From assembly GCF_048403405.1 (NCBI RefSeq), contig NZ_CP183129.1: 64,000 nt of DNA; one strand, given 5' to 3'. Source of the DNA: Escherichia coli (GTDB lineage: Bacteria > Pseudomonadota > Gammaproteobacteria > Enterobacterales > Enterobacteriaceae). Shown here piece by piece: positions 54,223 through 54,378 of the stretch (positions within the stretch are counted from its first letter, which is position 1; every line of letters begins with the position of its first letter). The translations under genes were made by a program, and so were the position numbers. The notes under the pieces are model-generated. The model was not told the DNA's origin and made no database searches. It saw only the letters and a program-made list of their open reading frames with translations.

Positions 54223-54378
54223 AACCTGATTACCTCACTACATACGCTTATACGTTTAGACATCCAGATAGCTGAAGATAACCAGAAAATTTGCCAATGT
54301 CGAGCCTGCATGTTGAAGGTGAGAAAGTTTCAAGGAAAAGGCTACGTTAGAATATAAGAATGACGAAAAGGAGAGAAA

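What the first reader, a model, noticed from the sequence alone, without database searches (positions are those of the whole stretch)
54240..54290. Possible MetJ met-box pair in the metA / yjaB divergent region
agacatcc-agatagct (about 54258-54273) resembles tandem 8 bp met-boxes (consensus AGACGTCT) in the metA promoter region, consistent with MetJ repression of metA. Read by eye only.
Basis: inference. Interest (0 to 1): 0.15.

Follow-up and report, generated by a model that had tools for sequence, protein, structure and literature searches.

The report
Known MetJ operator of metA

Summary
The window is E. coli chromosome. metA lies on the - strand (ATG at 54222) and yjaB on the + strand (from 54379). 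agacatcc (54258-54265) and agatagct (54266-54273) are present exactly as described, in the correct 8-bp register.

They are half of a longer site. On the metA strand, 54273..54242 reads AGCTATCT GGATGTCT AAACGTAT AAGCGTAT. This matches letter for letter the four-metbox metA site listed for E. coli K-12 by Augustus & Spicer 2011 (27.16 bits, 19 nt before the ATG).

- **Score:** rescoring with their matrix gives 27.14 bits. None of 1000 dinucleotide shuffles of the 64-kb window reaches that.
- **Independent matrix:** a matrix built without metA also ranks this site first in the window.
- **Conservation:** in 80 of 80 Enterobacterales species, the 200 nt upstream of metA hold exactly one passing site. 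Each has 3-6 boxes and ends 16-41 nt before the ATG.
- **Position:** the array starts 1 nt after a conserved -10 hexamer and covers the predicted transcription start. This fits SAM-dependent MetJ repression by promoter occlusion.

It is already known, so interest is low.

The parts
54242..54273 (-). Complete metA MetJ operator: four tandem 8-bp metboxes, AGCTATCT GGATGTCT AAACGTAT AAGCGTAT on the metA strand
   Evidence: Identical to the published K-12 metA site. It scores 27.14 bits with the published matrix, and 0 of 1000 shuffles reach that. It is the top hit of the window with a matrix that excludes metA. Mean identity across 79 Enterobacterales upstream regions is 0.85.
54266..54273 (-).
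   Evidence: 6.70 bits, 5/8 matches to the consensus; column identity 0.80.
54258..54265 (-).
   Evidence: 8.96 bits, 6/8 matches. It is the most conserved box, with identity 0.95. GGATGTCT is the second unit in 65 of the 80 species' sites listed.
54250..54257 (-).
   Evidence: 8.11 bits, 6/8 matches; identity 0.90.
54242..54249 (-).
   Evidence: 3.37 bits, just above the 3.15-bit single-box threshold; identity 0.75. Most other genera have AAACGTAT or ATACGTAT here.
54275..54280 (-). Predicted sigma-70 -10 hexamer TATCTT of metA; it ends 1 nt before metbox 1
   Evidence: Promoter scan. TTATCTTC is invariant in the 6-species alignment and conserved across the 79 regions. The start site of about 54267-54269 is inferred from this hexamer, not measured.
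54298..54303 (-). Predicted -35 hexamer TCGACA with a 17-nt spacer
   Evidence: Promoter scan. CTCGACAT has about 0.9 or higher identity across 79 species, while the spacer is not conserved.
54320..54332 (-). Conserved TGAAACTTTCTCA, a candidate MetR activator site (TGAAnnnnnTTCA with one mismatch), centred about 57 nt upstream of the predicted start
   Evidence: Conserved block with TGAA and TCA invariant. The pattern alone is not enriched in the window, with 39 matches against 30 expected. The MetR assignment rests on the known MetR regulation of metA stated in PMC3228920 and PMC4239095 and is inferred for this exact position.
54233..54236 (-). Shine-Dalgarno GAGG of metA
   Evidence: TGAGG is invariant in the 6-species alignment and conserved across 79 species.
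53293..54222 (-). metA coding sequence (homoserine O-succinyltransferase, 309 aa), the regulated gene
   Evidence: ORF listing; RefSeq annotation.
54379..54822 (+). yjaB (acetyltransferase), the divergent neighbour and not the target
   Evidence: ORF listing; annotation. The yjaB-side sequence is not conserved across species, with identity of 0.25-0.37.

Best explanation
Window 54242-54273 is the MetJ operator of the E. coli metA gene. It consists of four head-to-tail 8-bp metboxes.

Mechanism, from established knowledge of MetJ: each ribbon-helix-helix MetJ dimer inserts its beta-ribbon into the major groove of one metbox. Neighbouring dimers contact each other, so binding along the array is cooperative, and at least two boxes are needed. 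The corepressor S-adenosylmethionine raises the affinity.

The array begins 1 nt after the conserved -10 hexamer and spans the predicted transcription start, from about -4 to +28. The loaded repressor array should therefore block RNA polymerase from binding or opening the metA promoter when SAM, and hence methionine, is plentiful.

A conserved MetR-type site about 57 nt upstream of the start would supply the opposing activation.

Shown here: the sequence, its identity to the published site, its statistical significance, its conservation and its position relative to the conserved promoter hexamers. Taken from the literature: MetJ binding to and repression of metA. Inferred: the exact start site and the occlusion step.
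For: - **Identity to the published site:** the sequence matches the published four-metbox metA site with the same 19-nt gap to the ATG.
- **Score:** the published matrix gives 27.14 bits against a 12.58-bit threshold, and 0 of 1000 dinucleotide shuffles of the window reach it. Shuffles give a site of 4 or more boxes 0.001 times per window.
- **Independent matrix:** a matrix built from 25 E. coli metboxes of eight other operators, with metA excluded, ranks this locus first in the 64-kb window for 2-, 3- and 4-box sums. The 4-box sum is 26.24, against a maximum of 18.8 in 300 Markov simulations.
- **Conservation:** in 80 of 80 Enterobacterales species (MetA 79-99% identical), the 200 nt upstream of metA hold exactly one passing site. 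Sites have 3-6 boxes, score 20.4-41.5 bits and end 16-27 nt before the ATG, with one at 41 nt.
- **Footprint:** operator identity is 0.85, against 0.25-0.37 on the yjaB side. Separate conserved blocks mark the -35, the -10, the SD and a MetR-like site.
- **Unit structure:** box number changes only by whole 8-bp units. E. coli 95NR1 has an exact 8-bp duplication, and Serratia marcescens has 6 boxes. A register-dependent protein array predicts this.
- **Promoter:** the scan places the -10 at 54280..54275, directly abutting box 1.
- **Literature:** metA is in the core MetJ regulon. E. coli metA metboxes were part of the known training set, and Enterobacterial metA is marked as tested experimentally for repression (PMC3228920; PMC4239095).
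Against: - No binding or expression experiment can be done here.
- The classical footprinting and start-site papers for metA (Michaeli 1984, Mares 1992, Biran 1995, Marincs 2006) are not in the held library. The start site, and therefore the occlusion geometry, rests on a consensus promoter scan plus conservation.
- Box 4 is barely above the single-box threshold (3.37 against 3.15 bits).
- The published matrix was seeded with E. coli sites that included metA, a slight circularity. addresses this.
Confidence: 0.96

Rival explanations
1. Only a two-box operator exists: boxes 1 and 2 are the functional MetJ site, and the downstream AAACGTAT AAGCGTAT units are incidental.
For: Two boxes are the minimum functional unit (PMC3228920 methods). 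Box 4 is weak at 3.37 bits.
Against: Box 3 scores higher (8.11 bits) and is better conserved (0.90) than box 1 (6.70 bits, 0.80). The best 2-box sum in the window is boxes 2+3, not 1+2. Of the 80 species, 68 keep four boxes and none has fewer than three. The published annotation lists four.
Confidence: 0.03
2. The resemblance is chance, and the block is conserved only because it is core promoter and 5'-UTR sequence such as the discriminator, start site or an RNA element, not because MetJ binds it.
For: The block abuts the -10 hexamer and includes the predicted start site. By-eye pairs with at least 5/8 matches per box are common in the window.
Against: None of 1000 shuffles reaches the score. 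The conserved pattern has an 8-bp period and fits a metbox matrix built without metA. Box number varies by exact multiples of 8 bp across species and strains. The leader RNA folds no better than shuffles, with z = 0.31. No Rfam family matches the region. MetJ regulation of metA is published.
Confidence: 0.01
3. The metboxes regulate the divergent gene yjaB instead of, or as well as, metA.
For: They lie in the shared 156-bp intergenic region, 106 bp from the yjaB start codon. Shared metboxes do serve divergent pairs such as metJ/metB and metE/metR.
Against: The distance to the metA ATG is fixed at 16-27 nt in 79 of 80 species, while the sequence on the other side is not conserved, with identity of 0.25-0.37. 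The array abuts the metA-strand -10. yjaB is not listed in the MetJ regulon tables of PMC3228920. The same paper shows that exbB is not regulated although it shares the metC intergenic region.
Confidence: 0.02

Closest known systems
E. coli K-12 metA MetJ operator (b4013; Augustus & Spicer 2011, Table S1)
   Same: The 32-bp sequence is identical, with the same four boxes and the same 19-nt gap to the ATG. The whole region from the MetR-like site to the ATG is identical to K-12.
   Different: Nothing differs in the operator. The strain differs from K-12 at two bases further upstream and lacks yjaA beyond yjaB.
Other E. coli MetJ operators (metJ/metBL 4 boxes, metF 4-5, mmuP 4, metE/R 3, metN 3, metK 3, metC 2, ybdH/mtnE 2)
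   Same: All are tandem 8-bp AGACGTCT-like repeats in strict register near the promoter. The metA score of 27.14 bits falls within their range of 15.0-31.2.
   Different: No metA box matches the consensus better than 6/8, and the operator relies on four moderate boxes. ybdH and metC use two strong boxes averaging 9.5-11 bits.
metA operators of other Enterobacterales (Salmonella, Klebsiella, Citrobacter, Serratia, Yersinia and others)
   Same: They have the same position and register and the same core GGATGTCT AAACGT-T.
   Different: The Escherichia operator is weaker (27.14 bits, against 30-34 in most Enterobacteriaceae) because box 3 has A where T is usual and box 4 has G where A is usual. 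Some genera have 3, 5 or 6 boxes.

Membership tests
MetJ operator (metbox array) | Two or more contiguous 8-bp units resembling AGACGTCT with no spacing between them | tested here: met
   Four contiguous units match the consensus at 5/8, 6/8, 6/8 and 5/8. The flanking in-register octamers score -6 to -23 bits.
MetJ operator (metbox array) | Passes the published information-matrix thresholds (each box at least one quarter of the consensus score; the site at least the consensus score of 12.58 bits) | tested here: met
   The boxes score 6.70, 8.96, 8.11 and 3.37, for a total of 27.14 bits. None of 1000 shuffles reaches this. A matrix built without metA gives the same ranking.
MetJ operator (metbox array) | Lies in the promoter or leader of a methionine biosynthesis or transport gene, typically within about 75 bp of the start codon | tested here: met
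   It ends 19 nt upstream of the metA ATG and abuts the predicted -10. The typical position is stated in PMC3228920.
MetJ operator (metbox array) | Conserved at the orthologous position in other species that have MetJ | tested here: met
   In 80 of 80 Enterobacterales species there is a single passing site upstream of metA. There is also a clear phylogenetic footprint.
MetJ operator (metbox array) | Bound by MetJ in a SAM-dependent manner, with the gene derepressed in a metJ mutant | not testable with these tools
   This rests on the literature only. [quoted passage not shown] The figure with the values is not held.
MetJ operator (metbox array) | A metJ repressor gene is present in the same genome | not tested
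   I did not search the window for metJ, and from memory it lies about 86 kb from metA in K-12, outside this window. PMC3228920 Table 2 reports metJ in 122 of 122 non-symbiotic Enterobacteriales.

The most novel reading that the evidence does not exclude
The strength of the metA operator may be naturally tuned. The Escherichia lineage carries a weakened promoter-distal half: box 3 is AAACGTaT and box 4 is AAgCGTAT, giving 27 bits against 30-34 in most other Enterobacteriaceae. Individual strains or species change the number of boxes by exact 8-bp slippage. E. coli 95NR1 has 5 boxes and Serratia marcescens has 6. Such changes could set different repression thresholds for the heat-labile, growth-limiting MetA enzyme.
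Probability: 0.25. Interest if true: 0.2.

Novelty: already known. Interest (0 to 1): 0.06.

Why it matters
It confirms that the first-stage reader can recognise a real repressor operator by eye, and it fixes the operator's exact extent in this window (54242-54273, four boxes). Biologically, this is the well-known switch by which SAM-loaded MetJ shuts off the first committed step of methionine synthesis. Nothing here changes that picture. The minor added value is a survey of 80 species. It shows that the site is universal in Enterobacterales and varies by whole 8-bp units.

Tried and rejected
- **Classical papers:** I looked for the primary papers that mapped the metA start sites, the MetR footprint and MetJ binding (Michaeli 1984, Mares 1992, Biran 1995, Marincs 2006, Thomason 2015). 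None is held.
- **Start-site data:** the Cappable-seq start-site file is truncated long before the metA coordinate, so I did not use it.
- **Text searches:** searches for the operator sequence and for "metA promoter" gave nothing relevant.
- **K-12 annotation:** the K-12 RefSeq record carries no regulatory features here.
- **RNA leader element:** I considered a riboswitch or other leader structure and rejected it. No Rfam family other than rRNA, tRNA and StyR-44 matches 53000-60000. The leader folds no better than shuffles, with z = 0.31.
- **Second site:** the only other matrix-passing site in the window is 39930-39945 (TGACATCCAGATGTTT, 14.82 bits). It lies inside a 543-aa ORF, and shuffles produce sites passing these thresholds 0.68 times per window, so I treat it as noise.
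- **MetR pattern:** the consensus pattern alone is not enriched in the window. The MetR-site call rests on conservation and the literature.

Full report
**Locus.** The window is Escherichia coli chromosome. A 301-bp query around the finding matches 5425 of 5426 complete E. coli genomes, and RefSeq annotates the flanking genes there as metA and yjaB. In the window, metA is on the - strand at 53293..54222, with the A of its ATG at 54222. yjaB is on the + strand at 54379..54822. The two genes diverge from a 156-bp intergenic region, 54223-54378.

**Observation.** These match the metbox consensus AGACGTCT at 6/8 and 5/8 positions. Consensus matching of that quality is common: nine positions in the window hold an adjacent pair with at least 5/8 matches each and at least 11/16 together, and six of them lie outside this locus. 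Eye-matching alone would therefore not have been enough.

**What is really there.** On the metA strand, the sequence directly after the -10-like hexamer is AGCTATCT GGATGTCT AAACGTAT AAGCGTAT (54273..54242). It is followed by 19 nt that contain the GAGG Shine-Dalgarno sequence, and then the ATG. This 32-mer is letter for letter the site listed for E. coli K-12 metA (b4013) in Table S1 of Augustus & Spicer 2011 (PMC3228920). That table gives 4 boxes, a total of 27.16 bits, a mean of 6.79 bits and a gap of 19.

**Weight-matrix test.**
- I entered the published information matrix (Table 3 of PMC3228920) and its thresholds. The boxes score 6.70, 8.96, 8.11 and 3.37 bits, for a total of 27.14. The consensus score, which is also the site threshold, is 12.58.
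- The in-register flanking octamers score -6 to -23 bits, so the array has sharp ends.
- Across the whole 64-kb window only two sites pass: this one, and a two-box site at 39930-39945 scoring 14.82 bits.
- In 1000 dinucleotide-preserving shuffles of the window, passing sites occur 0.68 times per shuffle, so the 39930 site is at noise level. It also lies inside a 543-aa ORF.
No shuffle reaches 27.14 bits; the maximum is 23.2.
- The published matrix was seeded with E. coli sites that included metA. I therefore built a second matrix from 25 metboxes of eight other E. coli operators. With it, the metA locus is still the top hit of the window for 2-, 3- and 4-box sums. Its 4-box sum is 26.24, the next unrelated position scores 6.0, and the maximum in 300 first-order Markov simulations is 18.8.

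**Conservation.**
- A genome-collection scan with the MetA protein returned orthologous loci from 80 Enterobacterales species, from Escherichia to Yersinia, Dickeya, Serratia and Providencia, at 79-99% protein identity.
- I scanned the 200 nt upstream of each metA with the published matrix. All 80 have exactly one passing site. Sites have 3-6 boxes (four in 68 species), score 20.4-41.5 bits and end 16-27 nt before the ATG, with one at 41 nt.
- A MAFFT alignment of 79 upstream regions shows a clear footprint. The operator averages 0.85 identity to the window: box 2 is 0.95, box 3 is 0.90, box 1 is 0.80 and box 4 is 0.75.
- Separate conserved blocks lie at CTCGACAT (the -35 region), TTATCTTC (the -10 region), GAGG (the SD) and TGAAACTTTCTCA (54332..54320).
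- The promoter spacer and the yjaB side are not conserved; the yjaB side has identity of 0.25-0.37.
- The number of boxes changes only by whole 8-bp units. Serratia marcescens has 6 boxes, and Brenneria and Dickeya oryzae have 5. One E. coli strain, 95NR1, carries an exact 8-bp duplication of box 4. This is what an array of register-dependent protein dimers predicts.
- Within E. coli, 3824 of 5425 genomes are identical to the window over the 82 nt from the -35 to the ATG. In the three variant genomes I examined, one had a spacer SNP, one the box duplication, and one had changes in boxes 2 and 3 plus one base just past box 4.

**Mechanism.**
- The promoter scan finds one sigma-70-like promoter on the metA strand: -35 TCGACA at 54303..54298, a 17-nt spacer, and -10 TATCTT at 54280..54275. 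Both hexamers are conserved.
- Box 1 starts 1 nt after the -10. With a start site about 6-8 nt downstream of the -10 (roughly 54267-54269, inferred), the operator spans about -4 to +28.
- From established knowledge of MetJ: it is a ribbon-helix-helix dimer that binds one metbox per dimer, binds cooperatively along tandem boxes, and uses S-adenosylmethionine as corepressor. PMC3228920 also states that at least two boxes are needed.
- The most likely mechanism is therefore that a SAM-loaded array of four MetJ dimers occludes the core promoter and start site of metA.
- The conserved TGAAACTTTCTCA, centred about 57 nt upstream of the inferred start, fits the MetR half-palindrome TGAAnnnnnTTCA with one mismatch. 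It is the likely site for the MetR activation of metA reported in the literature. The pattern alone is not enriched in the window (39 matches against 30 expected), so this assignment rests on conservation.
- From memory only, and not verified here, the MetR footprint in Salmonella metA (Mares et al. 1992) lies just upstream of the -35, which would agree.

**Rivals.**
- **Chance, or generic conservation of promoter and UTR sequence.** This is excluded by the shuffles, the 8-bp periodic fit to a matrix built without metA, and the unit-wise copy-number changes. There is also no RNA signal: the leader folds no better than shuffles (z = 0.31), and no Rfam family matches the region.
- **A two-box-only operator.** This is unlikely, because box 3 scores higher and is better conserved than box 1.
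- **Regulation of yjaB.** This is unlikely. The array keeps a fixed distance to metA and abuts the metA -10, while the other flank is not conserved. yjaB also does not appear in the published regulon tables.

**Limits.**
- Binding and repression cannot be tested here.
- The primary papers on metA start sites and footprints are not in the held library.
- The one genome-wide start-site file held is truncated before this coordinate.
- The start site, and hence the occlusion step, is inferred.

**Verdict.** The one correction is that the site is a four-box operator at 54242-54273, not a pair. It is a textbook element of the MetJ regulon that is already published with this exact sequence. Novelty is "already known" and interest is low.

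Noticed in passing
window 54823-55052: This strain has no yjaA gene. The yjaB stop codon (54822) is followed after about 114 nt by the 5S rRNA of an rrn operon (54937-55052, - strand). K-12 has yjaA between them. About 2800 of 5426 complete E. coli genomes share the yjaA-less junction, so it is a common polymorphism.
   Followed up: partly
L082 (E. coli 95NR1, NZ_CP021339.1), aligned to window 54242-54249: An exact 8-bp tandem duplication of metbox 4 (AAGCGTAT AAGCGTAT) gives a five-box metA operator in one E. coli strain. Serratia marcescens (L072) has six boxes, and Brenneria (L067) and Dickeya oryzae (L075) have five. The operator appears to evolve by slippage of whole 8-bp units.
   Followed up: partly
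window 54242-54257 versus L003-L045: The Escherichia metA operator (27.14 bits in both E. coli and E. albertii) is weaker than those of most other Enterobacteriaceae (30-34 bits). Box 3 has A where T is usual (AAACGTaT) and box 4 has G where A is usual (AAgCGTAT).
   Followed up: no
window 39930-39945: TGACATCCAGATGTTT is a two-box metbox-like site of 14.82 bits inside a 543-aa ORF on the - strand (39265..40896). Sites passing these thresholds arise 0.68 times per shuffled window, so it is probably noise.
   Followed up: partly
window 54320-54332: A strongly conserved TGAAACTTTCTCA block lies 16 nt upstream of the metA -35. It fits the MetR consensus TGAAnnnnnTTCA with one mismatch and is probably the MetR activator site of metA.
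   Followed up: partly
L084 (E. coli ET82, NZ_CP101005.1), aligned to window 54241-54265: A natural variant changes box 2 from G to A (AGATGTCT, closer to the consensus) and box 3 from T to C (AAACGCAT, worse), and has a G-to-A change just past box 4. The effect on repression is unknown.
   Followed up: no
window 58060-58168: There is an Rfam StyR-44 match (123.6 bits) in the 16S-23S spacer of the rrn operon, next to a tRNA at 58249-58321. This is the usual rrn spacer content.
   Followed up: no
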